From contig OZ024743.1 in the NCBI GenBank assembly GCA_964016885.1, positions 296,856,001 through 296,920,000 of the forward strand: DNA of 64,000 nucleotides, written 5' to 3'. The DNA comes from Eledone cirrhosa (taxonomy: Eukaryota). The position numbers were made by a program, and so were the translations under genes. Below the pieces are notes generated by a model. It worked only from the letters and a program-made list of their open reading frames with translations, made no database searches and was not told where the DNA came from. How positions within the stretch are numbered: the stretch's first letter is position 1; each line of letters starts with the position of its first letter. Below, in pieces: positions 5,467 through 43,400 of this stretch.

Positions 5467-5470
<4 letters not shown>
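5305..5470 (+). mobile_element. tRNA-derived SINE (family 1), degenerate, with (TA)n tail
   Basis: Head AGACATGGGGTGTGGTAAAG and body GGCAAGTGTCTTC...TGTGAGTGAAATTTGGTAGA are shared with copies at 8730-8860(-), 19413-19570, 42700-42850, 43050-43200 and 47120-47260. Confidence 0.65.
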
Positions 5471-8072: not shown

Positions 8073-8729
8073 TAAGTTTTTCCTACAGCTATCAATTTGG
8101 GGTTGTTGAGGTCCTGAGTTGGCATAAAGACAAGATCCACTCCCATTGCATAGTTTCTTAATGTTCCAAAACATTTGGATCAGCTCAGACAGTACTTCTC
8201 AGGGCCTGAACACAGCCCAAAGGGAGTTTCAGTCTTGAAATCATGAGGATAGTCTCAGTCAATTGAAGTTTTTTTTCTACTCACTATATTTAGTTGGCAA
8301 GGCTTTACATTTATACACTATACAGAACCTTCCTCTGAGGCATTTTCATATCTATTCTCTGTTCTTTTCTCACATATGAACATTAGCTGATGAGGGCACC
8401 CTAACACTAATGACAAATCTAACACTAGCCTTAAACCTAACAAGCCCTAACCCTAATGTATATTCCATGACAAAATATTTTTGTTTTCCTATTTCCAGAT
8501 TTGTCAAGGATTTTCACAATTTCTTTCCAAATCTCAGTGATAGCATTCATCATTTAGCGTCCATTTTTTTCATGCTGGCATAGGTTTTAAATACAATTCT
8601 AAATGGAGTAATTGTTAGCTAATAATAGTTAATTGCTAAGTTCACATAAATCTGACCACATCTTTAAAAAAGGACACATTGTGCAGTGTAGTCCTACACA
8701 CGCACGCACGCATGCATACACAATAGACT

Positions 8730-8860
8730 TTGTACATTTTCTGTCTATCAAATTCACTCACAAGGCATTTGTCAGCCCAAGGTGCTATGCAATGGGACAC
8801 AACCCAAAACCCTGTGGTTACCAAATGAATTCCTTAACCACAACTGCAATGTCTGCACCA
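8730..8860 (-). mobile_element. tRNA-derived SINE (family 1), degenerate
   Basis: The - strand reads GGTGCAGACATTGCAGTTGTGGTTAAGG...CACCTTGGGCTGACAAATGCCTTGTGAGTGAATTTGATAGACAG. Confidence 0.6.
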
Positions 8861-15406: not shown

Positions 15407-15459
<53 letters not shown>

Positions 15460-19376: not shown

Positions 19377-19418
<42 letters not shown>

Positions 19419-22400
19419 TAGGCACGGCTGTGTGGTTAAAAAGTTCACTTTACAACCACATGATTTTGGGTTCCATACCACCACATGGCTCCTTATGAAA
19501 ATGTCTTCTATAACCTTGGGTCAACAAAGGCTTTTGGTAGACTGTATGTAAGTGTAAAAAATGCCTGTTGTGTATATCTGAGTAGGTGTGTCAGTTGCCA
19601 GAAATGTCATATAACAATTTATAAAATCATTGGTAATATTTGTTTATGTCACTCATAAACAATACACTCTCCTTGCAGTGTAATAGTTCGATGGAACATA
19701 AAATAAGTATGGGTTGACATCAGCAAAAGCATATAGCCATAGAAAAAACTGCCAGAAAAATACCTTGTCCAACCCATACAAGCATAATGATGATGATAAG
19801 ATAAGATAAACTATGAAGTAAGTCACAAATAAATGATGGGGTAAGGGGAAGATGAATTGGTTTGAAACACAAGACAGAATAATTGCAGAATTGATATTTA
19901 CCATCACCGTCTCCACCATGCAATTCAAATAGAGGTGTATATGAAAGTCTAAATTATGTTTATATATGATAAACATATATGTCTGACTATGAATGTTTTA
20001 AGCTGTGATCTGGTCACAATATATATCTCTGATGGAAAAAAATACCTGAAACGCTAGTGTCTGGTGTTCTCACACTGCTACTGAGATAGTTGTGACATGA
20101 TCACAGCTTAAAGCATTTGTAGTGAGACATAAACATATTGCATATACCTTCATATGTATCCCTATTATAATGTACATAACTTCTGATTTTTTTCATATCC
20201 AGTTTTTCTCTCAATACGTTTGTGCTTTCTTGTTCATAAACAGTAACACTATACATTCAGTGTAGCTTCCTCTCTGTGCCTCTCTCCAGCCGTTGCATAT
20301 CCTCTGTGAATTCAGTATCAGAATTCTCTTTTCTATACCCCTTTGATGTTACATATTTAAAAATAGGCATATTTAATTTAAAATGTTAATTTATTTTATT
20401 TGAAAATCTCCCCTGACCAATAGTCTGTTTTTCACATGTGTTTCTTAGATGAAAGCCTGGAATAAATTGATTCTGAATTTTCCACTTCTGTGTATGAAGT
20501 TAAATGTGGCACAATATTTCCAATACTAGAAACAAAGGAATTATAGAAGTCCTGTTTCATCTATTTTGGTTGCTTTAGATTTTCATGATGATGATGGGCA
20601 TATAATTATCACGTTGATGGTGATGATGACTGCAATGGTGATGACGATGGGGATGGTAATGATGATAGTAAGGATGATAATGATGGCAGTGGTGATGATG
20701 GTGATGAGGATAATGGTGATGGTGAAGATGATGTTGATAGTGATTATGATGATGATGACGATGATGGTCATGATGATGGTGATGGTGAAGATATAGTAAG
20801 GATGATAATGTTGGCAGTGGTGTTGGTGATGATAGTGATGATGATGCTGGGGAAGATGGTGTTGATGATGATAGTGATGATGATGATGACGATGTTGGTG
20901 ATGATGACGACAGAGGTGATAATAGTGAGGATAGTGATGATGATGACTAGGATGACAATTGTGATGATGGTGGAGATGATGGTGGCAAATACTGATAGAA
21001 TGTAATATATCAATATGAACATGTGTTATAGTGACTGTGAAATGACCTGTAAAGTTTTGCTAGGCTTTTGCCATTCAGAAGAAATGAAGATTCTGCAGTG
21101 GAAGAAAACAGCAGCCGTTGCAGATGAAATGGGATTCCAGGGAATATAATATTTGGCAATAACTTATATACTGTTATTACTTGTTGAAAGTCATTCCATT
21201 TCTGCTGTCAACAGCTGGTTTGGCAGTATCGGTAGAGCGTCAGACACCATGCTTTGCAGCATAGTTATGGCCCCTTTGCGTTCTGAATTCAAATCCGCCG
21301 AGGTTAACTTTGCCTTTCATCCTTACGAGGTTGATAAAATAAAGTACCAGTGGTGCACTGAGGTAATCGCTGGCCTTGTGCCAAAAGTAGACACTCATAG
21401 GGCAGTGGATTGGCAGTATCGGTAGAGGGTCGGACGCCATGCTTTTACGCATAGAGTTACAGTCCTTTATGGTCTGAGTTCAAATCCCGCCGAGGTTAAC
21501 TTTGCCTTTCATCCTTACGAGGTCGATAAAATAAAGTACCAGTAATGTACTGGGATAATTGCTGGCCTTGTGCCAAAAGTAGAAACAATTATTACTGTCA
21601 TCATCATCTTTATTATCAGTATCATCATCATCACTATTGGCAGCATCATCATCACCAATACCACCACCACTAACACCACTATTATCATCATCATCTTCAT
21701 CAACATTGTTATCATCATCACCTCCATCATTAACATCAATCTGTCATCATCATCACCATCATTGTCACCACCACCACCACCATCGAATTTCAATTACCAG
21801 CTTCACACCAACAGCTTATGTTATTTTATCTAATCAAATATTTTTTGCTATTTACCATTTCAGCCTATACATGTGATGCTGGCCACTATCTTGATATCCA
21901 AGGCAATCAAGAATGCTTACCATGTCCAAAAGGTACATATTCTCTTGGTGGGGGAATCCGGTTTGACAGCTGGGATCAGTTACCTAAGGGATTCTATGTT
22001 AAAACAGAAAAGTTCTCTGAAATTGGAATGTTATCCAGCAATGAAGAGTATGTAACTGAGAAATCCAATTGTTCCAAGTAAGTTCTATTTCTCTTCCTTT
22101 CCTCTTTTTCTTGTATGTTCTTCTTCAAATGATATATAACTATTACGTCTTCTGATCAGTGTTCTTTTGGTACAGGATCATCATCAGCTTCACCACTACC
22201 ACCACCACCACCATCATCTTCACTACTACCATCATCACCGTTTAACATCTATTTTTCATGCCTGTATGGGTTAGAGGGGTTGTCAGATACTGTGGCTTGA
22301 CTGGTCAGGTGATTACATCCTGCTCTCAAGGTCTGTTTCTGGTTTGGTTTCTGCAGCTGGATGCCATTCTTAATACCAACCACTTTACTGTGTGTACTGG

Positions 22401-25400
22401 GAGGATTTTATTGCAACTCTGGCACTACCGCCATAAAGGGTGGACTGGGTGCTATTTATCATGGCACCAGCACTGATACTTTACAGGGAGGATGGTGCTT
22501 TTTGTTGTGGAACTATCACTACCCTCTTACAGGGTGGGCTGTTGAGAGTTAAACATATTAACCCCTTTCATACCAATGCAACTGTGACAACCCCTGGTTC
22601 TATGGTAAAAAACCTTTAATTTTAACCTTTTAGCATGTAAACCAGCCATGTCTGGCCAGGGTTCTCTCACCTCTTTCTATTCAAACCAGACCGTCTGTTC
22701 ATATTGACGTTAAGGTATTGTTCTCAAAATAAATAACATAAAAATATCGTGGATTCAATATTATGTGAGATAATTATGTAAGATAAAGCCTTTACCACAA
22801 AAATACAATAGTATAATACAATAGAGTAATGTAAATGTTAAAGGGTTAAACCCTTCATATTTAAATTAAAGCATCCTGTCATTATTTAATGTAAGAATCT
22901 TTTGTTATGTTCCAGATATCATAATATTAATGAAAAAGTCAGTTGTTTTACTATGTCTTACCATGTCTTACCAAATTCTTTATTTTCAAAATTAATTGAA
23001 AGCTATGCACAGTGCATTTCATTAGAAATATGTTAATAAAAGGGTTAAACATAGATGGAGACTTGGCAGTGTGGTTAAGAATGTGTACTGGGGTGGCTGT
23101 AGATTATAGGCAATGGTGAGTGGTTATGAATAGTTACAGAAATGGCTGAGTAGTTAAGAATAGTTACAGACGGCTGAGTGGTTAAGAATAGTTACAGACA
23201 TGGCTGAGTGGTTAAGAATAGTTACAGACGGCTGAGTGGTTAAGAATAGTTACAGACATGGCTGAGTGGTTAAGAATAGTTACAGACATGGCTGAGTGGT
23301 TAATAATAGTTACAGACATGGCTGAGTGGTTAAGAATAGTTAGAGAAATGGCTGAGTAGTTAAGAATAGTTACAGACATGGCTGAGGGGTTAAGAATAGT
23401 TACAGACATGGCTGAGTGGTTAAGAATAGTTACAGACGGCTGAGTGGTTAAGAATAGTTACAGACATGGCTGAGTGGTTAAGAATAGTTACAGACGGCTG
23501 AGTGGTTAAGAATAGTTACAGACATGGCTGAGTGGTTAAGAATAGTTAGAGACATGGCTGAGTAGTTAAGAATAGTTAGAGACATGGCTGAGTGGTTAAG
23601 AATAGAGACATGGCTGAGTGGTTAAGAATAGTTACAGACATGGCTGAGTGGTTAAGAATAGTTACAGACATGGCTGAGTGGTTAAGAATAGTTACAGACG
23701 GCTGAGTGGATAAGAATAGTTACAGACATGGCTGAGTGGTTAAGAATAGTTACAGACATGGCTGAGTGGTTAAGAATAGTTAGACATGGCTGAGTGGTTA
23801 AGAATAATTACAGATGGCTGAGTGGTTAAGAATAGTTACAGACATGGCTGAGTGGTTAAGAATAGTTACAGACATGGCTGAGTGGTTAAGAATAGATACA
23901 GACATGGCTGAGTGGTTAAGAATAGTTACAGACATGGCTGAGTGGTTAAAAATAGTTACAGACATGGCTGAGTGGTTAAGAATAGTTACAGACATGGCTG
24001 AGTGGTTATGAATAGTTACAGACATGGCTGTGTGGTTAAGAATAGTTACAGACAGCTGAGTGGTTAAGAATAGTTACAGACGGCTGAGTGGTTAAGAATA
24101 GTTACAGACGGCTGAATGGTTAAGAATAGTTACAGACATGGCTGAGTGGTTATGAATAGTTACAGACATGGCTGTGTGGTTAAGAATAGTTACAGACGGC
24201 TGAGTGGTTAAGAATAGTTAGACATGGCTGAGTAGTTAAGAATAGTTAGACATGGCTGAGTGGTTAAGAAAAGTTACCGCCGGCTGAGTGGTTAAGAATA
24301 GTTACAGACATGGCTGAGTGGTTAAGAATAGTTACAGACATGGCTGAGTGGTTAAGAATAGTTACAGACGGCTGAGTGGTTAAGAATAGTTACAGACGGC
24401 TGAGTGGTTAAGAATAGTTACATACATGGCTGAGTGGTTAAGAATAGTTACAGACATGGCTGAGTAGTTAAGAATAGTTACAGACATGGTTGAGTGGTTA
24501 AGAATAGTTACAGACGGCTGAGTGGTTATGAATAGTTACAGACATGGCTGAGTGGTTAAGAATAGTTACAGACATGGCTGAGTGGTTAAGAATAGTTACA
24601 GACATGGCTGAGTAGTTAAGAATAGTTACAGACATGGCTGAGTGGTTAAGAATAGTTACAGATGGCTGAGTGGTTAAGAATAGTTACAGACGGCTGAGTG
24701 GTTAAGAATAGTTACAGACATGGCTGAGTGGTTAAGAATAGTTACAGACGGCTGAGTGGTTAAGAATAGTTACAGACATGGCTGAGTGGTTAAGAATAGT
24801 TACAGACATGGCTGAGTGGTTAAGAATAGTTACAGACATGGCTGAGTAGTTAAGAATAGTTACAGACATGGCTGAGTAGTTAAGAATAGTTACAGACGGC
24901 TGAGTGGTTAAGAATAGTTACAGACATGGCTGAGTGGTTAAGAATAGTTACAGACATGGCTGAGTGGTTAAGAATAGTTACAGACGGCTGAGTGGTTAAG
25001 AATAGTTACAGACATGGCTGAGTGGTTAAGAATAGTTACAGACATGGCTGAGTGGTTAAGAATAGTTACAGACATGGCTGAGTGGTTAAGAATAGTTACA
25101 GACGGCTGAGTGGTTAAGAATAGTTACAGACGGCTGAGTGGTTAAGAATAGTTACAGACATGGCTGAGTGGTTAAGAATAGTTACAGACGGCTGAGTGGT
25201 TAAGAATAGTTACAGACATGGCTGAGTGGTTAAGAATAGTTACAGACATGGCTGAGTAGTTAAGAATAGTTACAGACATGGCTGAGTAGTTAAGAATAGT
25301 TACTGACATGGCTGAGTGGTTAAGAATAGTTACAGACGGCTCAGTGGTTAAGAATAGTTACAGACATGGCTGAGTGGTTAAGAATAGTTACAGACGGCTG

Positions 25401-28400
25401 AGTGGTTAAGAATAGTTACAGACATGGCTGAGTGGTTAAGAATAGTTACAGACATGGCTGAGTAGTTAAGAATAGTTACAGACATGGCTGAGTAGTTAAG
25501 AATAGTTACTGACATGGCTGAGTGGTTAAGAATAGTTACAGACGGCTGAGTGGTTAAGAATAGTTACAGACACGGCTGAGTGGTTAAGAATAGTTACAGA
25601 TGGCTGAGTGGTTAAGAATAGTTACAGACATGGCTGAGTAGTTAAGAATAGTTACAGACATGGCTGAGTTGTTAAGAATAGTTACAGACGGCTGAGTGGT
25701 TAAGAATAGTTACAGACATGGCTGAGTGGTTAAGAATAGTTACAGACGGCTGAGTGGTTAAGAATAGTTACAGACATGGCTGAGTGGTTAAGAATAGCTA
25801 CAGACATGACTGAGTAGTTAAGAATAGTTACAGACATGGCTGAGTGGTTAAGAATAGTTACAGACATGGCTGAGTAGTTAAGAAAAGTTACAGACGGCTG
25901 AGTGGTTAAGAATAGTTACAGACATGGCTGAGTGGTTAAGAATAGTTACAGACGGCTGAGTGGTTAAGAATAGTTACAGACATGGCTGAGTGGTTAAGAA
26001 TAGTTAGAGACATGGCTGAGTGGTTAAGAATAGTTAGAGACATGGCTGAGTGGTTAAGAATAGTTACAGACATGGCTGAGTGGTTTAGAATAGTTGCAGA
26101 CATGACTGTGGTTAAGAATAGTTAGAGACATGGCTGAGTGGTTAAGAATAGTTAGAGACATGGCTGTGTGGTTAAGAATAGTTAGAGACATGGCTGAGTG
26201 GTTAAGAATAGTTAGAGACATGGCTGAGTGGTTAAGAATAGTTACAGACGGCTGAGTGGTTAAGAATAGTTACAGACACGGCTGAGTGGTTAAGAATAAT
26301 TACAGATGGCTGAGTGGTTAAGAATAGTTACAGTCATGGTTGAGTGGTTAAGATTAGTTGCAGACATGGCTGAGTAGTTAAGAATAGTTACAGACATGGC
26401 TGAGTGGTTAAGAATAGTTACAGACATGACTGAGTAGTTAAGAATAGTTACAGACATGGCTGAGTGGTTAAGAATAGTTACAGACATGGCTGAGTAGTTA
26501 AGAAAAGTTACAGACGTCTGAGTGGTTAAGAATAGTTACAAACATGGCTGAGTGGTTAAGAATAGTTACAGATGGCTGAGTGGTTAAGAATAGTTACAGA
26601 CATGGCTGAGTGGTTAAGAATAGTTAGAGACATGGCTGAGTAGTTAAGAATAGTTAGAGACATGGCTGAGTGGTTAAGAATAGAGACATGGCTGAGTGGT
26701 TAAGAATAGTTACAGACATGGCTGAGTGGTTAAGAATAGTTACAGACATGGCTGAGTGGTTAAGAATAGTTACAGACGGCTGAGTGGATAAGAATAGTTA
26801 CAGACATGGCTGAGTGGTTAAGAATAGTTACAGACATGGCTGAGTGGTTAAGAATAGTTAGACATGGCTGAGTGGTTAAGAATAATTACAGATGGCTGAG
26901 TGGTTAAGAATAGTTACAGACATGGCTGAGTGGTTAAGAATAGTTACAGACATGGCTGAGTGGTTAAGAATAGTTACAGACATGGCTGAGTGGTTAAGAA
27001 TAGATACAGACATGGCTGAGTGGTTAAGAATAGTTACAGACATGGCTGAGTGGTTAAAAATAGTTACAGACATGGCTGAGTGGTTAAGAATAGTTACAGA
27101 CATGGCTGAGTGGTTATGAATAGTTACAGACATGGCTGTGTGGTTAAGAATAGTTACAGACAGCTGAGTGGTTAAGAATAGTTACAGACGGCTGAGTGGT
27201 TAAGAATAGTTACAGACGGCTGAATGGTTAAGAATAGTTACAGACATGGCTGAGTGGTTATGAATAGTTACAGACATGGCTGTGTGGTTAAGAATAGTTA
27301 CAGACGGCTGAGTGGTTAAGAATAGTTAGACATGGCTGAGTAGTTAAGAATAGTTAGACATGGCTGAGTGGTTAAGAAAAGTTACCGCCGGCTGAGTGGT
27401 TAAGAATAGTTACAGACATGGCTGAGTGGTTAAGAATAGTTACAGACATGGCTGAGTGGTTAAGAATAGTTACAGACGGCTGAGTGGTTAAGAATAGTTA
27501 CAGACGGCTGAGTGGTTAAGAATAGTTACATACATGGCTGAGTGGTTAAGAATAGTTACAGACATGGCTGAGTAGTTAAGAATAGTTACAGACATGGTTG
27601 AGTGGTTAAGAATAGTTACAGACGGCTGAGTGGTTATGAATAGTTACAGACATGGCTGAGTGGTTAAGAATAGTTACAGACATGGCTGAGTGGTTAAGAA
27701 TAGTTACAGACATGGCTGAGTAGTTAAGAATAGTTACAGACATGGCTGCGTGGTTAAGAATAGTTACAGACGGCTGAGTGGTTAAGAATAGTTACAGACA
27801 TGGCTGCGTGGTTAAGAATAGTTACAGACATGGCTGAGTGGTTAAGAATAGTTACAGACGGCTGAGTGGTTAAGAATAGTTACAGACGGCTGAGTGGTTA
27901 AGAATAGTTAGACATGGCTGAGTAGTTAAGAATATTTACAGGCATGGCTGAGTAGTTAAGAATAGTTACAGACATGGCTGAGTGGTTAAGAATAGTTACA
28001 GACGGCTGAGTGGTTAAGAATAGTTACAGACGGCTGAGTGGTTAAGAATAGTTACAGACATGGCTGAGTGGTTAAGAATAGTTACAGACGGCTGAGTGGT
28101 TAAGAATAGTTACAGACATGGCTGAGTGGTTAAGAATAGTTACAGACATGGCTGAGTGGTTAAGAATAGTTACAGACATGGCTGAGTAGTTAAGAATAGT
28201 TACAGACATGGCTGAGTAGTTAAGAATAGTTACAGACGGCTGAGTGGTTAAGAATAGTTACAGACATGGCTGAGTAGTTAAGAATAGTTACAGACATGGC
28301 TGAGTAGTTAAGAATAGTTACAGACGGCTGAGTGGTTAAGAATAGTTACAGACATGGCTGAGTGGTTAAGAATAGTTACAGACATGGCTGAGTGGTTAAG

Positions 28401-31400
28401 AATAGTTACAGACGGCTGAGTGGTTAAGAATAGTTACAGACATGGCTGAGTGGTTAAGAATAGTTACAGACATGGCTGAGTGGTTAAGAATAGTTACAGA
28501 CATGGCTGAGTGGTTAAGAATAGTTACAGACGGCTGAGTGGTTAAGAATAGTTACAGACGGCTGAGTGGTTAAGAATAGTTACAGACATGGCTGAGTGGT
28601 TAAGAATAGTTACAGACGGCTGAGTGGTTAAGAATAGTTACAGACATGGCTGAGTGGTTAAGAATAGTTACAGACATGGCTGAGTAGTTAAGAATAGTTA
28701 CAGACATGGCTGAGTAGTTAAGAATAGTTACTGACATGGCTGAGTGGTTAAGAATAGTTACAGACGGCTCAGTGGTTAAGAATAGTTACAGACATGGCTG
28801 AGTGGTTAAGAATAGTTACAGACGGCTGAGTGGTTAAGAATAGTTACAGACATGGCTGAGTGGTTAAGAATAGTTACAGACATGGCTGAGTAGTTAAGAA
28901 TAGTTACAGACATGGCTGAGTAGTTAAGAATAGTTACTGACATGGCTGAGTGGTTAAGAATAGTTACAGACGGCTGAGTGGTTAAGAATAGTTACAGACA
29001 CGGCTGAGTGGTTAAGAATAGTTACAGATGGCTGAGTGGTTAAGAATAGTTACAGACATGGCTGAGTAGTTAAGAATAGTTACAGACATGGCTGAGTTGT
29101 TAAGAATAGTTACAGACGGCTGAGTGGTTAAGAATAGTTACAGACATGGCTGAGTGGTTAAGAATAGTTACAGACGGCTGAGTGGTTAAGAATAGTTACA
29201 GACATGGCTGAGTGGTTAAGAATAGCTACAGACATGACTGAGTAGTTAAGAATAGTTACAGACATGGCTGAGTGGTTAAGAATAGTTACAGACATGGCTG
29301 AGTAGTTAAGAAAAGTTACAGACGGCTGAGTGGTTAAGAATAGTTACAGACATGGCTGAGTGGTTAAGAATAGTTACAGACGGCTGAGTGGTTAAGAATA
29401 GTTACAGACATGGCTGAGTGGTTAAGAATAGTTAGAGACATGGCTGAGTGGTTAAGAATAGTTAGAGACATGGCTGAGTGGTTAAGAATAGTTACAGACA
29501 TGGCTGAGTGGTTAAGAATAGTTACAGACATGACTGTGGTTAAGAATAGTTAGAGACATGGCTGAGTGGTTAAGAATAGTTAGAGACATGGCTGTGTGGT
29601 TAAGAATAGTTACAGACATGGCTGAGTGGTTAAGAATAGTTACAGACATGGCTGAGTGGTTTAGAATAGTTACAGACATGACTGTGGTTAAGAATAGTTA
29701 GAGACATGGCTGAGTGGTTAAGAATAGTTAGAGACATGGCTGTGTGGTTAAGAATAGTTACAGACATGGCTGAGTGGTTAAGAATAGTTAGAGACATGGC
29801 TGAGTGGTTAAGAATAGTTACAGACGGCTGAGTGGTTAAGAATAGTTACAGACACGGCTGAGTGGTTGAGAATAGTTACAGACATGGCTGAGTTGTTAAG
29901 AATAGTTACAGACGGCTGAGTGGTTAAGAATAGTTACAGACATGGCTGAGTGGTTAAGAATAGTTACAGACGGCTGAGTGGTTAAGAATAGTTACAGACA
30001 TGGCTGAGTGGTTAAGAATAGCTACAGACATGACTGAGTAGTTAAGAATAGTTACAGACATGGCTGAGTGGTTAAGAATAGTTACAGACATGGCTGAGTA
30101 GTTAAGAAAAGTTACAGACGGCTGAGTGGTTAAGAATAGTTACAGACATGGCTGAGTGGTTAAGAATAGTTACAGACGGCTGAGTGGTTAAGAATAGTTA
30201 CAGACATGGCTGAGTGGTTAAGAATAGTTAGAGACATGGCTGAGTGGTTAAGAATAGTTAGAGACATGGCTGAGTGGTTAAGAATAGTTACAGACATGGC
30301 TGAGTGGTTAAGAATAGTTACAGACATGACTGTGGTTAAGAATAGTTAGAGACATGGCTGAGTGGTTAAGAATAGTTAGAGACATGGCTGTGTGGTTAAG
30401 AATAGTTACAGACATGGCTGAGTGGTTAAGAATAGTTACAGACATGGCTGAGTGGTTTAGAATAGTTACAGACATGACTGTGGTTAAGAATAGTTAGAGA
30501 CATGGCTGAGTGGTTAAGAATAGTTAGAGACATGGCTGTGTGGTTAAGAATAGTTACAGACATGGCTGAGTGGTTAAGAATAGTTAGAGACATGGCTGAG
30601 TGGTTAAGAATAGTTACAGACGGCTGAGTGGTTAAGAATAGTTACAGACACGGCTGAGTGGTTAAGAATAATTACAGATGGCTGAGTGGTTAAGAATAGT
30701 TACAGTCATGGTTGAGTGGTTAAGATTAGTTGCAGACATGGCTGAGTAGTTAAGAATAGTTACAGACATGGCTGAGTGGTTAAGAATAGTTACAGACATG
30801 ACTGAGTAGTTAAGAATAGTTACAGACATGGCTGAGTGGTTAAGAATAGTTACAGACATGGCTGAGTAGTTAAGAAAAGTTACAGACGTCTGAGTGGTTA
30901 AGAATAGTTACAGACATGGCTGAGTGGTTAAGAATAGTTACAGACGGCTGAGTGGTTAAGAATAGTTACAGACATGGCTGAGTGGTTAAGAATAGTTAGA
31001 GACATGGCTGAGTGGTTAAGAATAGTTAGAGACATGGCTGAGTGGTTAAGAATAGTTACAGACATGGCTGAGTGGTTAAGAATAGTTACAGACATGACTG
31101 TGGTTAAGAATAGTTAGAGACATGGCTGAGTGGTTAAGAATAGTTAGAGACATGGCTGTGTGGTTAAGAATAGTTACAGACATGGCTGAGTGGTTAAGAA
31201 TAGTTAGAGACATGGCTGAGTGGTTAAGAATAGTTAGAGACATGGCTGAGTGGTTAAGAATAGTTAGAGACATGGCTGTGTGGTTAAGAATAGTTACAGA
31301 CATGGCTGAGTGGTTAAGAATAGTTAGAGACATGGCTGAGTGGTTAAGAATAGGTGATGATTCTTCAGTGAGATGGAATTGGTCTGCTACTCTAAGAACC

Positions 31401-34400
31401 TGCATTTTTTTTACCCTCAACGATACAGACATCATTATCATCATCATGTCTGTTTATCTTTAATGGCATGGGTCAGACAGATCATTACAGACCAAGTCAG
31501 TACTCAAAGTTACAATCTTCCTACATCAGCCAGGGGCCATGTTTCACTTATATACATTCCAGTATTGGTATGGTTTCTATAGCTGGATACTTTTCCTAAT
31601 TTCAATCACTTTATAGTGTGTGTGTACAGGGTGTATTTTATTCTGACTCCAGCACTTGTTGGGTGGGAATTGTCATATCCTTCACATGACAGAAGAATCC
31701 TCTCAACCCTTTATCTGTCCATCTATCTTGGGATTGCTATTGGGATTTGTGCTTTAATTTTGTTATTGTTGTTCTGGTTCAAAGAAAGATACATTGATAA
31801 ATATAAACAAATAGCTATAGACATGTAGGTAGATAAGTAGATAGACAAACAAGCAGACAGATAGATAGATATATAGATAGATAGATATCTACTTAGGTAG
31901 CTAACTATATATAGTTGCTGTTCTACCACTGACCAGTATGTCAACAGTATGAGAGAGAAAATATCAGTGTAGAGGAGAGATATCAAAGCACATACATTCT
32001 CAAATGATTGGTCATTTTATTTATGGAATATATCAAAGTTTAATAGAAAAATAAAATAAAAAGAAAATTTAGATTGAGAAGAATGGAATGTAAGTAAAAT
32101 AAGAAAATATAAAGAAAAAAGAGACCTCCTCCCAGAAAAGGGAGGGAATGGCAAGGACTTAGTGTCACAGAAGAATGGGGAGGGGGAGGGTGATTGAGCT
32201 CCGGGCATAGGGTGTGGCAGTAAAGGGGCTGCGCCCAAATTCTAAATTACCAAACAAATCTAGCATAAAGTGCGTCACTTGATTCGTGTGTTTTATTATT
32301 ATGATATGCACACACATGAGAGGTAGTGGTGAGTGAGTATGTAACTGCTAATTAATATAGTGACTTGATGATCTTCTTTGCTAGATAAAAATCTAAATCC
32401 ATTCATTATTCACACAAGAATCAGTGAGTGGACATGTAACCAAATATTCATTTGTAAAATAATTGTTTCTACTTTAGGCACAAGGCCAGCAATTACCCAG
32501 TGCATTACTGGCACTTTATTTTATCGACCCCGTAAGGATGAAAGGCAAAGTCAACCTCGGCGGGATTTGAACTCAGATCGTAAAGGGACGTAACTATGCT
32601 GGAAAGCATGGCGTCCGACCCTCTACCGATACTGCCAATCCAGTAAAATAATATCCTGACATAATAACCAAACAGCTCAGAGAGAGAGGGGGGGGGGGCA
32701 GAGATAGATAGATAGAGAGAGAGAAAGAGAGAAACTGTTATTGACTGATAGCCCTCCCACTGTATCCTTCCTTTGTAATTTATGGTGACCCCCATTTAAG
32801 TAGAAATGTAGTAGGTGTGTATAATATGATTTATAGTAGAGGGCTGATATTTAATTTTGAGTGTGTGTGAGTGTGTATTGTAGTTGTGTCTATTTTGTGT
32901 ATGTTGAGTGTGGCGAAGTCATAAAGAATTAGTGGGTGTATAGATGGGGTGAATGTGAAAATAGAGAGAATGTCTATAGATGAGAGAGAAGTGAGTAAAT
33001 GTGAATGCATGTTGTGGGTGTGTTGTGTTATGAATGTTGTGTATGTTGTTATTGTGTGTTGTTGTGTTGTGTGTGTGTTGTTGTCTGTAGTATTGTAGCC
33101 ATGTGTGTTGTGTTGTGTATGTTGTAGTCATGTGTATTGTGTTGTGTATGTTGTAGTCATGTGTTGTGTTATGTGTGGTGTTGTAGTCGTGTGTTGTGCG
33201 TGTGTGTTGTGTGATATTGTAGCCATGTGTGTTGTGTTATGTATGTGTGGTATTGTAGCCATGTGTGTTGTGTTGTGTATGTTGTGTATGTGTGGCGTTG
33301 TCATCTGCATTGTTGTTGATATTAGATCCAGTTCAGCAGACTTATGATCTAATTCATTTTGATCTTAACCATTCTATGTTTTCTCTGGAATTATCTAATG
33401 TGTTCCTATTTTAAGACAGCAGGAGATCCAGAGGTAGACCATGAGCAAGATGGTTGGATAACATTCATGAGCTCAGCTGGTCTCACTTGGGGATCCAGCT
33501 AGATCAACTGTAGATGGTTGCTTTGATAGTACTCACTGGAATGTGTGTCTGAGGACTCTGCTCCTATCCTCCCCACCAGGATTACATACGTGAAAAAGAA
33601 GAAATAATTGTTTCTACTTTAGGCACAAGGCCAGCAATCACCCAGTGCATTACTGGTACTTTATTTTATCGACCCCGTAAGGATGAAAGGCAAAGTCAAC
33701 CTCGGCGGGATTTGAACTCAGATCATAAAGGGACGTAACTATGCTGGAAAGCATGGCGTCCGACACTCTACCGATACTGCCAATCCACCGCCCTGTAAAA
33801 AAGAAGAAATAATAAAAATAATAATGATTTCTACTGTAGGCACAAGGCCAGCAATTTAGGGAGAGGAGAAAGTCTATTAAATGAGCCCCAGTGCATGACT
33901 GGTGTTTTATTTCATCGACCTCATAAGAATGACACAAGTGTCACAACACACTGAGAGATTATTGGCTACACACTAAAGTGCCACAACACATTTAGAGATT
34001 AGTTGTGACACACTTCCATGGTGCATCTAGAGATTATTAGTAACATACTAAACTGTCATTCACCTAGAGATTATTGGTGACACAATAAAGTGTCATGATG
34101 CACCTAAAGCTTATTGGTGATATACTAAAGTGTCATGACACACCTAGAGGTTATTGGTGATATACTAAAGTGCCATGACCGACTTAGAGGTTATTGGTAT
34201 ACACTAAAGTGTCATGACATACTTAGAGTTTATTGGTGATATACTAAAGTGTCATGACACAGTTCAGAAATCTCTGGTGGATAGGTTCTATTGTGAGTTG
34301 TGTATTATCATCATTATATTTTTATGTGTCGGTGGGCGGTGGATTGGCAGTATCGGTAGAGGGTCGGACACCATGCTTTCCAGCATAGTTACGTCCCTTT

Positions 34401-37400
34401 ACGATCTGAGTTCAAATCCCGCCGAGGTTGACTTTGCCTTTCATCCTTACGGAGTCGATAAAATAAAGTACCAGTAATGCCCTGGGTAATTTCTGGCCTT
34501 GTGCCTAAAGTAGAAAAAATTATATTTTTATGTGTCAGTCTTTCAAAACTCCTCATACATAAACTGTTATAACTCTTAAAACCCTCTACTACACGAAACT
34601 GCATTAACAAGACTTTCTTTGAAAAGTATAAAACAGCACTATGATTGCATCACATTAAAAGTCTTCACTCTAATATTGCAAATTTTCTCAATGTTCTGTA
34701 CCTTAGTAAAGGTATCATACAGAGTTGAATTAACAAAGATATTTTTTGTTAAATTTTTACAGGATATTAAGAGTTAATATGGTCTAATAAATAATATTAG
34801 ATGTGTTTGTTTACTGACTTTATTTAGGTCAGTATTCTGGTCTCCCGAAAGAAGTTGTTAGAGCGTCACATTAAAATGCTTTGTGGTATTTGTTCTAGCT
34901 CAGTGCTCTGAGTTCAAATCCCAGAGCTCAACTTTTCCTTTAATGTTTTCAGAGTTGATAAATAAAGTACCATTCCAAGTAATGGATATGATTCCTTATG
35001 GTATCAATCTTGGCCCTTTGCATTCTGAGTTCACCTGTAACATCATTGGTGTCAAGCTGTATCTGCCATTGCCTTTCTCTTGGACAACATTGGTGGTGTG
35101 AGAGAAGAGACTTGCATGCATGTATGACTGCTGGTCTTCCACAAAACACCTTTCTCAGAGTTGCAGCTTTCAAGTGCAAACCCTTGGCCAACCCTGACTG
35201 AAGGGAGCTTTCATTTTTTTTACACTATCTTCTTTTTCTTCTTCTTCTTTTTCTTTTCTTCTTCTTTTTCTTTTTCTTCTTCTTTTTCTTCTTTTTCTTT
35301 TTCTTCTTTTTTTTCTTCTTCTTCTTCTTCTTCTTCTTCTTCTTCTTCTTCTTTGCCCACTTATTCCTGCAAGGGTCATTGGGGCAGAGTCCTCAAACAC
35401 TCCTTCCAGCAGGTCCTATCACAAGCAACTGTCTTCATTTGATCCGGCTCGATCACCAAGCGTGACCAGCCATGCTCATGGATGTTATCCAACCATCTTG
35501 CCCTAGGTCTCCTACCGGTTGGTTTTGCCTGTAAAATCTGTCCAGCGATTCTTTCTTGAGACATTCTAACCACATGCCCATAGTATCGGAGCTGTGATTT
35601 CTTAATTCGGAGAAGTAGTGGCTCTACCTGGAGTGACTCTCCGAGCTATGCACTCTATCGAGTAATATTACTCCAAAGACCCTTTGGAGGAACCCCAATT
35701 TGGCTGCTTGTATTCGCGATCTTATTCTTTCGGTCATTACCCAAGATTCCTTGAAGATAGTGAGTTTGGCCTCTATGCCTACTGCTCTTCTTCTGATTAC
35801 TGAATCCTGAAATTGGCACATTACTTAATTCAACCTCCTGCCTTCCATCACTTGTGAACACTGCCCAAGTTACTTGGACTTCTCTACCTGCTTCAGTGGA
35901 ACTCCATTCACATGTAGAGTGCACTGCGCAGGCTTCCTTGAGAGGATGAGTGTTTCAGTTTTCGCAGTACTGATTTTCATTCCAGCCATGCAGCACTTGC
36001 CGTCAAACCTATCAAGTGCAAGTCAGAGATCACCTTCACTCATCCTCAAAATTAATTTTGTTCCAGTTGCTTCATCTATATTTCACTTATAACTTTTAAA
36101 CCAACTATGGACCCTTGGTGCCTGTGATCCCCAAACTTTTCACTACCACTGACTCCTTTTATTTAAATGAATTTTCCTCTACATAAAAATCACAATGGAA
36201 AGAGAGAAATGTATATATTTAGAAAAAAGTGGATATCCAATATCATGTGCATATTAAATGTTTGATCTTAGATCAACAGTGGCTCAAACTTTTAGCTACC
36301 ATTAATATTTTGATCTTAACAATGTTTCATAAGCTTTTGGCTATCATTGGCCCCATTGAAATCTGTAATTATTAGGTTTACCATAACTTTTAAGGCTCAA
36401 ACCTGGACAGTTTTCAATTTTTATTATAAGTACCAGTACTTATATAATAATGAAGTGATTTCATATTCTAACTGTTAAGTTATTTGGTACTAAACTGCCC
36501 AAGTATGGTTCTATGATATAAACTGCCCAAGACCACCCAAGGTTCTATGATATAAAACAGCTTGTTTTAGAATATATATGCTTAAATTGAAACATCCCAT
36601 CATAGTTTTATGTAAGAAACTTTTCATATACAAAGTCTGTTGAAAAAGTATTCGACCTTAGGTTGGGGCAAAAATGATGTACCTGGAGGAGTTCAATTGC
36701 TAATCCTCTTTGAAGTAAGGTGATACTTCCACTGTTTGAAGCATCTCTGGAATGACTCTCGTATGATGTCCTCTTGGATCCCAAAAAAGTCAGAAGGAGC
36801 CATGCCTGGAGATTAAGGAGCCGAGAAAATGAGTGAAATGCCTTTCTTTTCATAAAAACCTTAGATCTCTTGTGCTGAATTGTATTACAAAGTCATTGGA
36901 GGATACCCTGATAGTACACCTTGTCTTTCTGGTTTATACTCATAATGCACAATACCTTGGTAGTCAAAGAAAACTGCATCCTTTCCAATTTCCTTTTGCA
37001 TGTAGTCATGTCTTTTGTTGGTAAGCTTTATTCATTTCCTCTTTGTGGGGTTAATTACCTCTCTAAAACAGTTGTTTCATGTAACATCTTCTTAATATTC
37101 AGTTGGTGGGGATTGTCTGTAATATATTGGTGTGGGTCCGGGAACGTATGTAAAATTATATGAGTTCGTCAATTTTTTGTAATTGTATAAGTGCTCTGTC
37201 ACAAAATATGTTTGGAAAGCATTGCCCTTTAGGGAAATAATATTTTTGAAATTACTTCTGTTGCTGCTATCATTACCACACTACTGTTGCCATAGCTACA
37301 GCATTGGTTTTACTATCATTGCAACACTGCTGTTGCTATAGCGATAGCAGTTGCTGCTATTATTATAGTGCTGTTGTTGCTAACACTACAACACTATTGT

Positions 37401-40400
37401 TGCTAACTCTTCAGTACTGTTGTTGCTGCTACCACCATCACCAACACTGCTGTTGTTGCTAACACTACAGTATTATTGTTGCTATCACTACAAAGTTGTT
37501 GCTAAGACTACAGTAATATTGTTACCACCACCACAACACTATCATTGCCAACACTACAGCAGTATTATTGCCAACACTACAGCAGTATTATTGCCAACAC
37601 TACATTACTATTGTTGCCAACACTATAACACAATTGTTGCTATAGTACAGCACAGCTGTTGCTAATACTAACACTATTGTTAACAATACACTGTTATTGT
37701 TGCTATCACTACAGTACTATTATTGCCAGTACTACTATTGCCAGTACTAGAGCACTATTGTTGCTACCACTACAGTATTATTATTGCCAGTACTACATCA
37801 CTATTGTTGCTACTACTGCAATACTATTATTGCCAGTACTACAGCACTATTGTTGTTTCCAGACGCAAAAGAGCATGGGCGAAGCAACTTTTCTACTACA
37901 CTACTATTATTGCCAGTACTACAGCACCATTGTTGCTACCACTACAGTACTATTATTGCCAGTACTATAGCACTATTGTGCTACCACCACAGACCTAATT
38001 GATGTTACTACCAATTACAAAACCATAGTTGTCAAGACTGTAACACTATTGTTACTAATATCACTAGTATAACAAACTAGACTATATACGCGCCTTAGTA
38101 TACATAAACAATTCCAATCATAGTTATTTTTTACAGCAATAATTATTTCATAACCACAAAGATATGGTCCGAACGTGGAAGAGCCGAACTTCCACTATCA
38201 TTGCCTCCATCTCTCTTGCCACCCCCATCTCTCTGTATGGTGAGCCAATGGGGTCCCACATGCTGGCCTGCCCACAGCCCCATGGACAGAATGGAGAAGC
38301 CATTTCCCCGGAGGATGGTAAGGGAGATAGAATGCAAGTATTGTAGATCAACAAGAAACATGCATTTACTGTACACTACAGCATTATTGTTGATAATAGT
38401 TCATATAGAATAAGTCTGATAGCTCAACAGCCTCGTACATATATTTTATATAGATTACATGCCATTGTGTTAATACAAATAGTCATATGTTGACAACAAA
38501 ACTATGTGCCAACTACCTCATGGAACACACGTGGGTGTCAACTAACATCATTACCTATTTAACTGCAAATAACAAATGCATGTGTATTTGTATGGTGGTA
38601 GTGGGAGAGATGAAAGAAGAGAGGTGGGTGAAAGAGTAGAAGAATTATTTTCTAATTACACTTAATTTCAAAACGCTACTTAAAGTGTTGGCATTGTAGA
38701 ATAACAATCCACAGTAACTCCTCAATTCTTTGCAAGTTTTCTTAAAAAGTTGCGTTGATTTTTTTTTTTTCTTTGAAAATTTGTAATTAGAGTGTTATAA
38801 AGAATGAGTTTATTCAAAAGCTAAATAATAAAATAACAGAGAAAAGGATGGTAAATATTTAATGTTGGCATTGTAGAATACTTATAGGAATTAGTATTGG
38901 ATAGTAGTTTACTTAACAGACTGTTCCAAGCTAGGAACTACTGAGCTCTGTAAGCAGAAAGATAAAAGGCATCTCTTTCTAGGTTTTTTTATCAACTGAA
39001 CATGTTTTGTGATATATATTTTATAAAAGTTCAGGCTTTATACTATATAGTATGTGTTCCAATTTGTTATAGATGTCACACCTCTCCCTCTTTCTCTCTC
39101 TCTCTATATGTATATATAATTTTCTCTTCTTTCTATTTACTTTTTATCTCTATACATATCATTTAATGTCCGTTTTCCTTACAGTTTATAGGTGTATGTG
39201 AGAGAGAGAGAGAGTCGATGAATTGGCAGAATTGTTAAAACATTGGTTTAAATGCCTCTCAGTATTTGTTCTGTGTTTTCTGAGTTCAAATCCTGCTGAG
39301 GTCTTTCATCTCCTCGGTACTTACTTTCATAGCTTATTCCATTATTGCTGTATGTGTGTTGATTTTGTTATATATATAAATGGATGTAAAAGGGCAATAA
39401 TGGTTTATATGTGCTGGTACCACAATAAAATACACCGAAGTACACTTTGTAAAGAGGGTGGTGATAGGAAGGGCATCTAGCTGTGGAAACCATGCCAAAC
39501 AAAGGGTTGAAGTGACTCTCAGTTGTGTTAAAGGCATGACAACCTCTCTTGTGTTGGTACCACGATAAAATACACCCAGTACTCTCTGTAAAATGGTTTT
39601 TAATAGGAAGGGTATCTAACTGTAGAAACAATACCAAAACCATAATGTGAGATATGGGCAACTGACCTGTCAATGAGAGGACAATAACTTTAAGTATTGA
39701 TTTGCTTTGTTAAATGATGATATATACTATCATCATTATTTTACATCAGTGTTTCATACTACCATGAGTTGGTTGAGTTGTCATGTTTGCACAGACAAGT
39801 CAGGTGACCACGTCTTGCTCATATGTTCCAGTTTGGCATAGTTTCTACAGGTGGGTGACATTCCTAGCACCAACAACTTTACAATGTGTACTGGGTGCAT
39901 TTTATTGGGGAACTAGTACTATCACTTTACTGAGTTGGCTTGGTGCTATTCATCATGAGAACAGTACTACCACTTTACAGAGTTGGTAATAGAGTAGTAA
40001 GATGTGAGCATTGCAGGAGTGGTACTGTACAAACAGTGGCAAGAAGGAGAGTGTGTATGGGAGTAGGTGTCAGGCTGTGGGTGTGGTTTGATAGACACAC
40101 ACACACACACGTGCACACACACACATACATATATGGTAAAGTTGGAAGAGTACTCTATCTGTGGGTCCCAAATCTTCAACCTGTATTGACACCATTTTGT
40201 GAATGGTATCAATATAGACTGAGGATTCGGGGCCCGTCTCAGAAAAATCTGAAACATGTGGCCGAATAAATGTTTGTACCTAAATGAGAGCATGTAATAA
40301 ATATATATATATAAACTTGAACATAAATTATTCCCCTTTGTCTCTCTCTGTAATCAACTCTCTTTTGTCTTTCGAGGCTGCTACTAACTATATTATCCCA

Positions 40401-43400
40401 TCAGCTGTTTCTTCCTCTATGCTTTCCTTTCTTTCCTCTTTCTTCAGTAATTTAAATTTTTTAACAGTTATATATGCCCCCACACCCCCCACCGCAAGGT
40501 GGTCGTGGAGGTGCCATGGCAAAAAAGCACCCAGCCCACACTGTAAAGTGGACGTGTAGGCGCCACGAAAAAGCACCCAGCACTCACTGTAAATGAGGTT
40601 GGTGTTAGGAAGGGCATCCAGCTGTAGAAGTCAAGCCAGATCAGTTCCTGTATGAGCAAGGCATGGTCAGCCGACCAGACACTGCCCACAACAGGACAAC
40701 CCGTCTAACCCATGCTAGCGTGGAAGAACGGACGTAAAATGGTGATGATGATGATTGATGCCATGTATTTTTTAAGCTGTCTCACACGCACCCTCTCTAT
40801 TGTATGTATTATATATTTTTCTCATCATCATCATCGTTTAACGTCCATCTTCCACACTTGCATGGGTTTGGACGGGAATTTTCCCACTTGAGGCAAGATT
40901 GGTTGTCTTGCTCGTATAGGACTGTCTGGCGGGTTTTCTACGGCTGGATGCCCTTCCTAACACCAACCACGTTTACAGTGTGGACTGGGAGGTTTTTACC
41001 GTGTTACCTACACGGCCACATTACAGCGTGGACTGTGTGTTTTTTTGTCGTGGCACCTACACGACCTCATTTATTTCGGACTGGATGTTGTGGTACCAAC
41101 ATAACTTTACATTGAAAGAGGTGGGGGGTAGTGGGACGGGGGTGTATTTTTGTTAGAGGTGCCTACTGACTGTAAGTTTCGCTTTGCACTTCGGCAAGGC
41201 GGGTCTTCTGTGTTACTGTGTAGCGCCAGAGATCTTGGTCCAGTGACATTGTCTTGGAGAGGTGTAAGTGTGTGAGGTCGGAATTTATCAAGTCATCCCA
41301 GGTTTTTCTGGGTCTGCCTACTCCGTGGCTACTGTCTATTTTTATCGGCCTGCACTTTTTTCATGTTCTCAATATTAAGGTATATAAATATTGAGTTTTG
41401 TCATGTATTACTCACTACCATGACTGAATCTTAACCATCTACTATGTCAGGGTATGTCATGCATCATCTTATTTTATCTGATGAGGACGTACTGAAATAT
41501 GTATAATAAAATATACTTGATCACAAGAATATCTATTTTGTTAATATTTTGAATTAATATTAATAACTCTGGAAAACCATTCTGTTGAGTGCTTCCAATC
41601 TATTGTAAAACTCTTTCTTTGATTTATTCATTGAACCTTGTTTAACTTTTAAATATATATATATATATAAGGAAAAGAAATTGAAAAATATTTATTTACT
41701 TTATCGATTTCACAGTTCTTATGATTATCAAAAGTAAAATTGAGATGGAGGGTTTGTGTGTCTGTTGTGTGTCTTGCATCTAACTGGATTTTGAAAATTC
41801 TTTGTTTTATACAAAAAAAAAAAAAAAAAATAGTGGCTCGGATTGTTATTTGTTTAAAATGGAATTTTGTTGGTTGATGACAGTCATCTGATTAGGTACA
41901 GTAATTTTCACACTAGAAAAACTGGCACAAAATTGCTATTTGCCATTTTATTTGTTGGTAACAGTCACATGATTAGGCTTAGTAATTTTTGCACAAAAAA
42001 AAGATGGTCAGAAAGTGAGAGAAGAGTTGAAAAATCGGAGTTTTCTGGTTCAGTGAGTATGGCTGATGTTGAAGTGCTGAGGAATGTCAGATTTTAAGAG
42101 GTGTCAAATTTCAGAATTCCTATTGTAGTTGAATGTAGAAGGAATTGGTTTAGTGACTGGATGAATCATAAGTAACCAGGCAGTCAATGCATTTTTATTG
42201 CAAATTTCACAGATAACCTTTTGAACATCTGCTTATTTGTGTTTGGTTATCCAAGTTTTGTGCATTTTCTTATATTCTTAAAACTAGTTCTGTTTGATGT
42301 ATTTATAATTTCATACTGTATAACCAGAATTTGAATAACTATCATTCGGAATATAAATGTTAGACTGCCTGGTTACTTATGACTCACCTTGTATAGATTT
42401 AAAAAAATTAAAGTATTTTGGAGATGATTTTTTTATCAGTTACAAAATCATTCATTTGATCTTTTGTTATTCACTACAAAAACACAGCAATAATAGTGTC
42501 ACTATTATCACCTCATTCTGAAGATGAGACTGTGACATTTGCAAAATGATATTAAATTTAGGAATGCTAATGTTCCAAACTAAGCTTAGGAGACTAATAA
42601 GGAAATATTTAAAAAATCACGTCTAGAAGATTAAACTGAAATGTAGTTATGTTGTCAATGTAACATGCTTGAAATAAAATTTGTTCTCTATATATAAATA
42701 TATAAGCATAACTGTATGGTTAAGAAGTTCACTTCGAAACCATGTGGTTTTGATTCAGTCCCATTGGATGGCACCTTATGCAAGTACGTTCTACTTTAAC
42801 CATATGTTGTAAGTGAAATTTGGTAGATAAATACTGTGGAAGCACATAATTTATATACAGGTGTGTGTGAATATGTGATTGTGGGTACATGTATATGTTT
42901 AAGGCTCATAAGTGAGTATTTTGACAAATAGATTCAATAAACGAATAGACTTTTGAAAAATAAATACTGGGCTTGATACAATAAAAATTTCTGAAACCAG
43001 TAAAAGATGTGTGTGTGTGTGTGGCACCAGCGATGATGTTATATTGTCTTCATAGCCAAGTTATTAAGACATTTGCTTCAAAATTACAAGATCTGGGTTC
43101 AATCACACTGTGTGGCATCTTGGGTAAATGTCATTTACCATAGCCTTGTGGCCACCCAACTTATGCAAGTGAAATTGTGTTTACAGAAACTTGTTTGGAA
43201 TCCGGTTAAATGGATTGTACCTGTAATTCAAAGGGTCAGCTTTTTCATACAGTGTGTTATGTTAGATCTTTTTTCAAATTATGTTTATGGTATATGTGTA
43301 TGTGGAATACTCAACTGCTTGCATGTTAATTTCTGGGTTAATTTCACAAGCAGGCTATTCCATTGATCAAACAATTGGAACACTCATCGTTGAAACCAAC

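What the first reader, a model, noticed from the sequence alone, without database searches (positions are those of the whole stretch)
23110..31352. 8-kb intronic array that appears to be the amplified tRNA A-box head of a SINE: about 280 tandem Pol III A-boxes with no B-box
Seen: the unit CAGACATGGCTGAGTGGTTAAGAATAGTTA contains TGGCTGAGTGG, which matches the A-box consensus TRGCNNARYGG and tRNA D-arm sequence (TGGCNGAGTGGTTAAG). It also matches SINE heads in this window: CACGGCTGTGTGGTTAAAAAGTT (19424), CAGACATTGCAGTTGTGGTTAAGG (8855, -), TGTATGGTTAAGAAGTT (42713) and AGACATGGGGTGTGGT (5309). Array variants CACGGCTG and GGCTGTGTGG recapitulate SINE alleles. No GTTCRA B-box was seen in the array. 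Inference: a minisatellite born from a SINE promoter. It could act as a factor-binding or insulator-like array, a source of 28-30 nt tRNA-fragment-like RNAs, or (antisense) SINE-silencing small RNAs, or it could be neutral.
Basis: partly seen in the sequence, partly recalled or inferred. Interest (0 to 1): 0.72.

Follow-up and report, generated by a model that had tools for sequence, protein, structure and literature searches.

The report
Intronic minisatellite from a SINE head
An 8-kb tandem repeat in an intron of an ELAPOR-like gene consists of about 280 copies of the first 30 letters of a common short jumping element (a SINE); it holds only one of the two promoter boxes used by RNA polymerase III, and it is likely a neutral repeat expansion, one of at least 14 arrays grown from that element's front end in a genome crowded with long minisatellites.

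Summary
The array is real: 23113-31353, about 281 units of 30/28 nt, found at this locus only (139 of 139 exact genome hits), in a 25.8-kb intron of an ELAPOR-like gene. The unit matches the first 29 nt of a dispersed tRNA-type SINE at 26 of 29 positions (0 of 2000 shuffles reach it; tRNA-Ser matches only 15 of 16). No SINE body, B-box or T-run is present, and only 143 units keep the A-box consensus. TFIIIC anchors on the B-box, array variants are not depleted in the A-box, and 8 of 60 evenly spaced 10-kb stretches of this genome hold arrays of 8 kb or more. The same SINE head forms at least 13 other independent arrays, against one from the B-box segment (p about 0.005-0.06, depending on how loci are grouped): a head bias like human partial-Alu 5' repeats and reptile SINE-derived satellites. 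Other notes of this scan report SINE-head arrays elsewhere in this genome. Verdict: SINE-derived minisatellite, likely neutral; new member of a known kind.

The parts
23113..31353 (+). Minisatellite, about 281 units of 30/28 nt; unit = SINE nt about 1-29 incl. A-box; internal block duplications of 3.1-3.4 kb and 0.8 kb
23049..23112 (+). Degenerate left edge; 23049-23078 is an older unit (22 of 30 identical to the main unit) that carries the T-type SINE head
22558..23048 (.). TTAA-flanked MITE-like element with CCC...GGG ends and a second, nested one (22622-22849); its right end abuts the first degenerate unit
   Evidence: sequence; many dispersed copies of the inner part; very high contig depth; the MITE label is inferred from its ends
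21863..22077 (+). ELAPOR-like coding exon upstream of the array (start approximate); donor GT at 22078
   Evidence: (weak PF07699/PF23091 hits)
22078..47924 (+). Inferred 25.8-kb intron that holds the array, which starts about 1,036 nt after the donor
   Evidence: GT/AG ends with matching phase; no ELAPOR-like exon found between by motif scan
47925..48075 (+). Next ELAPOR-like exon (galactose-binding domain; end approximate)
   Evidence: PF23032 E 2.2e-10
19415..19560 (+). Full SINE copy of the parent family (T-type head), used as query for the family profile
5308..5467 (+). SINE copy of the parent family
   Evidence: E 1.1e-30
8729..8856 (-). SINE copy of the parent family
   Evidence: E 2e-20
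42701..42842 (+). SINE copy of the parent family
   Evidence: E 1.3e-25

Best explanation
The array is a single-locus minisatellite whose 30-nt unit is the first 29-30 bases of a tRNA-type SINE, and it likely arose by a short local duplication of one SINE head, likely grew by slippage and unequal exchange, and is likely selectively neutral and spliced out with its intron. Shown: the unit's identity with the SINE head; its confinement to this locus; the absence of SINE body, B-box and T-run; near-identical internal blocks of 3.1-3.4 kb and 0.8 kb (99.1% and 98.7%); sister arrays from the same head, 4 of 18 with the SINE body still directly 3'. Inferred: the founder belonged to the A-type subfamily (56 of 236 exact heads) and its body was lost or never present; the first duplication was seeded at the 5' junction, perhaps by the 6-nt match between the adjacent MITE end and the head core, which lie exactly one unit apart; the large blocks record recent unequal crossing-over or gene conversion; without a B-box TFIIIC would not anchor, so the A-boxes are passengers.
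For: Unit versus SINE consensus 26/29, score 43, shuffle maximum 32, 0 of 2000; best of 74 unrelated minisatellite units scores 19; tRNA-Ser scores 27. 139 exact genome hits, all 139 in the window. No body on either flank. A-type heads 56, T 170, C 5, G 5; 16 of 17 fetched A-type heads continue into SINE body past profile position 60. Head arrays at 18 other places, 17 with 5 or more units, each group with its own spacer. 134 kb of 600 kb evenly spaced sequence is minisatellite; 8 of 60 stretches hold arrays of 8 kb or more. 8 of 25 substitution types fall in the 11 A-box positions, 9.2 expected without constraint (counted by hand). B-box binds with nanomolar, A-box with micromolar affinity, and ETC insulator sites carry B-boxes (PMC12409998, passages). 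Short-read contigs hold the unit at depth 147-818 against 6-16 for the flanks, so the repeat is not a pure assembly artefact (possibly the assembly's own sample, not independent).
Against: Head arrays are over-represented against B-box-segment arrays (13 against 1, single-copy ratio 577:418), which pure chance duplication does not explain; the cause is unknown. This array, unlike the others examined, carries mostly the canonical A (262 of 276 cores), although the others were found with a T-requiring pattern. The founder's body is missing, so in-place birth is inferred from sister arrays, not seen here. Neutrality was not tested with population, binding or RNA data.
Confidence: 0.78

Rival explanations
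1. The array is a multivalent landing pad: hundreds of weak A-boxes would hold TFIIIC (tauA) by avidity without a B-box and act as an insulator or loop anchor within the ELAPOR-like gene.
For: 143 canonical A-boxes in 8.2 kb; canonical A in 262 of 276 cores; head bias among SINE-derived arrays.
Against: No B-box within 4 mismatches in the array or 200 nt downstream; ETC sites are defined by B-boxes and tauA binds transiently (PMC12409998, passages); variants hit the A-box at the unconstrained rate; the sister arrays amplify a head without the invariant A (with the selection caveat); the A allele is simply a SINE subfamily state.
Confidence: 0.05
2. The spliced intron, or Pol III, releases 28-30 nt RNAs resembling 5' tRNA fragments or guides against the SINE family.
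For: The array lies sense in a transcribed intron; the unit shares 15 of 16 nt with the tRNA-Ser D-arm.
Against: No B-box and no TTTT on the + strand; three units fold worse than shuffles (z +2.0 sense, -0.5 antisense), so no processing structure; intron RNA is SINE-sense and could not pair with SINE transcripts without antisense transcription (inference).
Confidence: 0.04
3. The unit was not duplicated in place but copied in from another SINE head or head array by templated repair, then expanded.
For: No SINE body here; the degenerate left unit is T-type while the array is A-type; four C9 arrays within 0.3 Mb share one unit and only one has a body; C8 and C15 units are nearly the same.
Against: The exact unit occurs nowhere else in the assembly; a degenerate 22/30 unit at the edge fits gradual in-place turnover.
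Confidence: 0.1
4. The unit comes from a tRNA-Ser gene rather than from the SINE.
For: 15 of 16 match to genomic tRNA-Ser.
Against: The SINE match extends to 26 of 29 and explains both flanks of the core; tRNA-Ser does not; no tRNA gene in the window.
Confidence: 0.01
5. Much of the array length (the 3.1-3.4 kb block pair) is an assembly duplication.
For: Blocks are 99.1% identical.
Against: The blocks differ by 26 substitutions and several unit indels; short-read contigs show the unit at hundreds-fold depth (not a copy number).
Confidence: 0.04

Closest known systems
TE-derived minisatellites of the human genome, including 136 repeats of a partial Alu at the 5' end of a full Alu (Ahmed and Liang 2012, PMC3389668; abstract and passages seen, supplements not seen)
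   Same: Tandem repeat of 10-100 bp whose unit is part of a SINE; 5' partial duplication in front of a full element (seen here in 4 of 18 sister loci); hotspots within the element; expansion after insertion.
   Different: Most human cases have two or few units (average 88.6 bp for the Alu 5' class); here a 30-nt unit reaches about 281 copies and the body is absent at this locus.
SINE-derived satellites (sSat1-3) of squamate reptiles (Vassetzky et al. 2023, PMC10702118; parts 1, 3 and 4 of 5 read, supplements not seen)
   Same: Arrays of a SINE portion, a few to hundreds of units, independent origins, some covering the tRNA-related head, longer arrays more uniform, variants without a terminal SINE remnant.
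   Different: sSat units are about 70-290 nt and often multi-locus and subtelomeric; this unit is 30 nt, single-locus and 82 Mb from the nearest contig end.
Mouse VNTR family from SINE B1 (Bois et al. 1998) and Alu minisatellites (Jurka and Gentles 2006); seen only as table and reference entries in PMC9659126 (passages)
   Same: SINE segment amplified into a locus-specific VNTR.
   Different: 7SL-derived SINEs, internal segments, not the A-box head.
Extra-TFIIIC (ETC) sites and tRNA-gene insulators (PMC12409998, passages)
   Same: Pol III promoter element outside a transcribed Pol III gene.
   Different: ETC sites carry extended B-boxes; this array has A-boxes only.

Membership tests
Minisatellite (VNTR-type tandem repeat) | Head-to-tail units of 10-100 bp | tested here: met
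   period 30, 280.7 copies
Minisatellite (VNTR-type tandem repeat) | Length polymorphism between individuals | not testable with these tools
   only three runs of one sample were listed; no long reads
SINE-derived tandem repeat (sSat / TE-derived TR) | Unit similar to part of a SINE and shorter than it | tested here: met
   26 of 29 to profile positions 1-29 of a 166-position family profile; 0 of 2000 shuffles
SINE-derived tandem repeat (sSat / TE-derived TR) | Parent is a dispersed tRNA-related SINE | tested here: met
   7 other copies in the window, 11 long hits in 600 kb, 577 and 418 exact motif pairs genome-wide; head shares 15/16-type core with tRNA-Ser; B-box-like segment at tRNA spacing. 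Target-site duplications and partner LINE not tested; family name not determined
SINE-derived tandem repeat (sSat / TE-derived TR) | Longer terminal unit running into the rest of the SINE (usual in major sSats, absent in minor variants) | tested here: not met
   no body on either flank; met in 4 of 18 sister loci
Squamate-type sSat | Subtelomeric preference | tested here: not met
   82 Mb from the end of a 378.8-Mb contig; 14 head-array loci lie at 0.15-0.99 of the half-length from an end
Squamate-type sSat | Same unit at many loci | tested here: not met
   139 of 139 exact hits at this locus
Pol III type II promoter | A-box | tested here: met
   143 canonical matches
Pol III type II promoter | B-box about 30-100 bp downstream | tested here: not met
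   none; best match has 4 mismatches in the array and in 200 nt downstream
ETC site / tDNA insulator | Extended B-box | tested here: not met
ETC site / tDNA insulator | TFIIIC occupancy | not testable with these tools
   no binding data
tRNA gene array | Cloverleaf with anticodon and T-arm | tested here: not met
   ARAGORN 0 genes

The most novel reading that the evidence does not exclude
The A-box head of this SINE family is a genome-wide hotspot for minisatellite birth because Pol III machinery bound at SINE promoters stalls or nicks DNA there, and the resulting B-box-free A-box arrays, of which this canonical-A array is the strongest case, hold TFIIIC by avidity and act as length-variable insulators inside genes.
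Probability: 0.05. Interest if true: 0.75.

Novelty: new member of a known kind. Interest (0 to 1): 0.2.

Why it matters
Taken alone the locus is an ordinary SINE-derived minisatellite and a usable length marker in an ELAPOR-like intron. The point of some value is the head bias: at least 14 independent arrays from the first 25-40 bases of one SINE family against one from its B-box segment. How minisatellites are born is largely unexplained (known mechanisms cover 6% of human TE-derived repeats, PMC3389668), and a family with many independent births at one element end, from dimer with body to 25-kb array, is a ready test set. If the avidity idea held, it would be a new way to recruit TFIIIC without a B-box, but nothing here supports it.

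Tried and rejected
Coding: 88 of 281 units shift the frame; longest stop-free stretch inside the array is 101 aa, with 167-326 stops per frame; rejected. tRNA gene or tRNA-Ser origin: rejected. RNA structure: no stable fold. Variants as SINE alleles: not beyond chance. Expression: no RNA holder listed; this is no evidence either way. The three listed runs hold 0.06-0.08 of the array's words, come from one sample and match the flanks without differences, so they may be the assembly's own sample; one contig runs from 30 letters inside the array through the right flank, one letter short of the tool's bridging threshold; no contig covered 23076-23105 at the left edge (a hole proves nothing). Body-motif control (0 tandem hits) is weak because that motif is rarely exact in single copies (0 of 43 covering hits). 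One search suggested the head is better conserved than the rest of the SINE (10 of 46 exact against 1 and 0), but those loci were partly chosen through heads; the evenly spaced sample did not show it (identity 0.71-0.73 against 0.60-0.79, n 7) and the genome-wide ratio to the B-box motif is 577:418. The raw count of 1,675 three-unit matches is not evidence by itself: the reversed pattern scored 478, and one array supplies at least 629 units. Subtelomeric clustering: not seen in my 14 loci. A genome-wide census of A-type head arrays was not obtained, so whether canonical-A arrays are over- or under-represented stays open. Literature: five searches listed no paper on SINE-head minisatellites in cephalopods; subscription papers are mostly outside the library, and one search returned nothing.
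Full report
Observation. The array spans 23113-31353, period 30, 280.7 copies, 92% matches. Splitting at the core gave 281 intervals (192 of 30 nt, 86 of 28, 2 of 26, 1 degenerate of 49) and 45 distinct strings, the commonest in 96 copies. The order of variants shows block duplications: 23502-26579 against 26580-29900 aligns with 2,945 matches and 26 mismatches plus unit indels, and 29096-29891 against 29892-30687 with 786 of 796. An exact 28-mer of the unit has 139 hits in the 3.0-Gb assembly and all 139 are in the window, so the unit is single-locus. ARAGORN finds no tRNA in the window.

Setting. Exons on the + strand hit ELAPOR Pfam domains (PF23032 E 2.2e-10, PF23091 E 2e-15, PF23031 E 2.6e-11; 5 of 8 fragments hit some family). 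A GT at 22078 and an AG at 47924 join in phase, and a motif scan found no ELAPOR-like exon between them, so the array is inferred to lie about 1 kb into a 25.8-kb intron, sense to the gene. Directly left is a TTAA-flanked MITE-like element (22558-23048) with a second nested in it. The 30 nt after its end match the main unit at 22 of 30 and carry a T-type head. The locus is 82 Mb from the nearest end of its 378.8-Mb contig.

Origin. I built a profile from 29 genomic copies of the SINE at 19415 (29 of the 40 hits). Array units hit profile positions 3-29; neither flank holds the body. The unit aligns to the consensus at 26 of 29 (score 43; 2,000 circular dinucleotide shuffles reach at most 32), to tRNA-Ser genes of this genome at 15 of 16 only (score 27; 11 of 12 fetched loci called tRNA-Ser), and the best of 74 unrelated minisatellite units scores 19. 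The one core difference from the consensus, A for T, which makes the A-box canonical, is a SINE subfamily state: exact 21-nt heads number 170 T, 56 A, 5 C, 5 G, and 16 of 17 fetched A-type heads continue into the body.

Recurrence. Pattern searches for tandem heads found other arrays. One search gave 1,675 matches, of which only the first 100 (to contig C12) were listed, so my list is a lower bound; its reversed control scored 478, so raw counts mean little. I fetched 20 stretches covering 18 places: 17 have 5 or more units, with units of 25-40 nt and sizes from 5 to at least 629 units (25 kb, end not reached); 4 of 18 have the SINE body directly 3' of the last head. Grouping four neighbouring C9 arrays and two neighbouring C2 arrays leaves 13 independent loci besides this one. 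The matching two-unit search with a B-box-segment motif found one locus (39 units) and with a body motif none (weak control). Single copies carry the exact head and B-box motifs at 577:418. Thirteen of 14 gives p 0.005; stricter grouping (10 of 11, 8 of 9) gives 0.022 and 0.056. Caveats: body-less heads are not in the 577, the 418 include a younger-looking subfamily, and arrays may copy from one another. A head bias is thus likely but not firmly measured. These arrays are nearly all T-type, lacking the invariant A, but they were found with T-requiring patterns; a census of A-type arrays was not obtained. Their positions are not clustered at contig ends (0.15-0.99 of the half-length), unlike what two earlier notes say of their own sets.

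Background. In 60 evenly spaced 10-kb stretches, TRF found 74 arrays of period 15-100 with 5 or more copies covering 134 kb of 600 kb; 17 are 2 kb or longer (15 not low-complexity) and 8 are 8 kb or longer, each with its own unit. An 8-kb locus-specific minisatellite is ordinary here.

Function. Eight of 25 substitution types fall in the 11 A-box positions (9.2 expected), so there is no sign of constraint (counted by hand). A review states that the B-box is the main TFIIIC site (nanomolar against micromolar) and that ETC insulator sites carry extended B-boxes (PMC12409998, passages). Three units fold no better than shuffles (z +2.0 and -0.5), and frames are broken by the 28-nt units. Intron RNA would be SINE-sense (inference). 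Short-read contigs of one sample match the flanks without differences and hold the unit at depth 147-818 against 6-16, which argues against a pure assembly artefact but is neither a copy number nor an independent individual.

Mechanism. Shown: identity with the SINE head, single locus, loss of everything 3' of about nt 29, block duplications, sister arrays with and without body. Inferred: a short duplication at the 5' junction of one SINE copy, possibly seeded by the 6-nt match between the MITE end and the head core one unit apart (the spacing could equally be a relic of an older unit), followed by slippage and unequal exchange; neutrality. Confidence about 0.93 for origin, 0.78 for the whole.

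Comparison. It works like, and meets the definition of, a TE-derived minisatellite (PMC3389668, abstract and passages: 23% of human minisatellites; 136 partial-Alu 5' repeats). It resembles squamate SINE-derived satellites (PMC10702118, parts 1, 3, 4 of 5) but has a shorter, single-locus, non-subtelomeric unit. It fails the type II promoter and ETC tests. Three tRNA-derived octopus retroposons are known (Ohshima and Okada 1994, seen only as a reference entry in PMC3531059); I did not determine which, if any, this family is. An octopus repeat annotation gives SINEs 11.6% of that genome and did not mention satellites in its main text (PMC13282606, passages). Five searches listed no paper on cephalopod SINE-head minisatellites; supplements were not seen. 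Earlier notes of this scan describe such arrays elsewhere in this genome; none lies near this locus.

Verdict. Real, correctly traced to a SINE head, likely neutral; new member of a known kind; interest 0.2.

Noticed in passing
L160-L162 (G000:C12:19.216-19.241 Mb and beyond): A SINE-head array of 40-nt units, at least 629 units and 25 kb, far larger than the one in this window; its far end was not reached.
   Followed up: partly
L154-L157 (G000:C9:52.23-52.52 Mb): Four separate head arrays within 0.3 Mb share one 37-nt unit, in both orientations; only one has a SINE body, which suggests copying between neighbouring sites.
   Followed up: partly
L153 (C8:41.99 Mb) and L163 (C15:31.69 Mb): Head arrays on different contigs have 31-nt units that differ by one base; shared origin or convergence not resolved.
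   Followed up: no
L149:3990-4010 (G000:C2:266.92 Mb): A second head array also begins just after a MITE-like GGGTTAA end, as at window 23048; such ends occur about 0.15 per kb per strand in the evenly spaced sample.
   Followed up: partly
L169-L172 (G000:C12:37.32 Mb): A 39-unit, 40-nt array made of the SINE's B-box segment, with the head still upstream: a B-box-type array that would be a better candidate for TFIIIC binding than the A-box arrays, if its variant B-box works.
   Followed up: partly
G000:C1:441.19-441.22 Mb, C2:325.65 Mb, C4:78.69-78.75 Mb: Long tandem clusters of tRNA-Ser-type genes (periods about 1.68 kb, 2.4 kb and 0.84-0.99 kb; 324 exact D-arm matches genome-wide).
   Followed up: no
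L173-L232: 22% of evenly spaced sequence is minisatellite, with many stretches filled end to end by locus-specific units of 16-63 nt.
   Followed up: partly
window 289-3172: Broken Helitron-like Rep/PIF1-helicase reading frames on the - strand (label from recalled motifs, not scanned).
   Followed up: no
window 15402-19157, 57617-59545, 60982-63919: Several RTE-type LINE fragments, one with a 642-aa open reverse-transcriptase frame (label recalled, not scanned); a possible partner LINE for local SINEs.
   Followed up: no
window 21216-21583: A 192-nt tandem dimer of a second tRNA-like SINE family with its own B-box-like motif at 21478.
   Followed up: no
window 33936-34261 and 37367-37984: Two further small minisatellites (40-nt and 23/46-nt units) in the same ELAPOR intron.
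   Followed up: no
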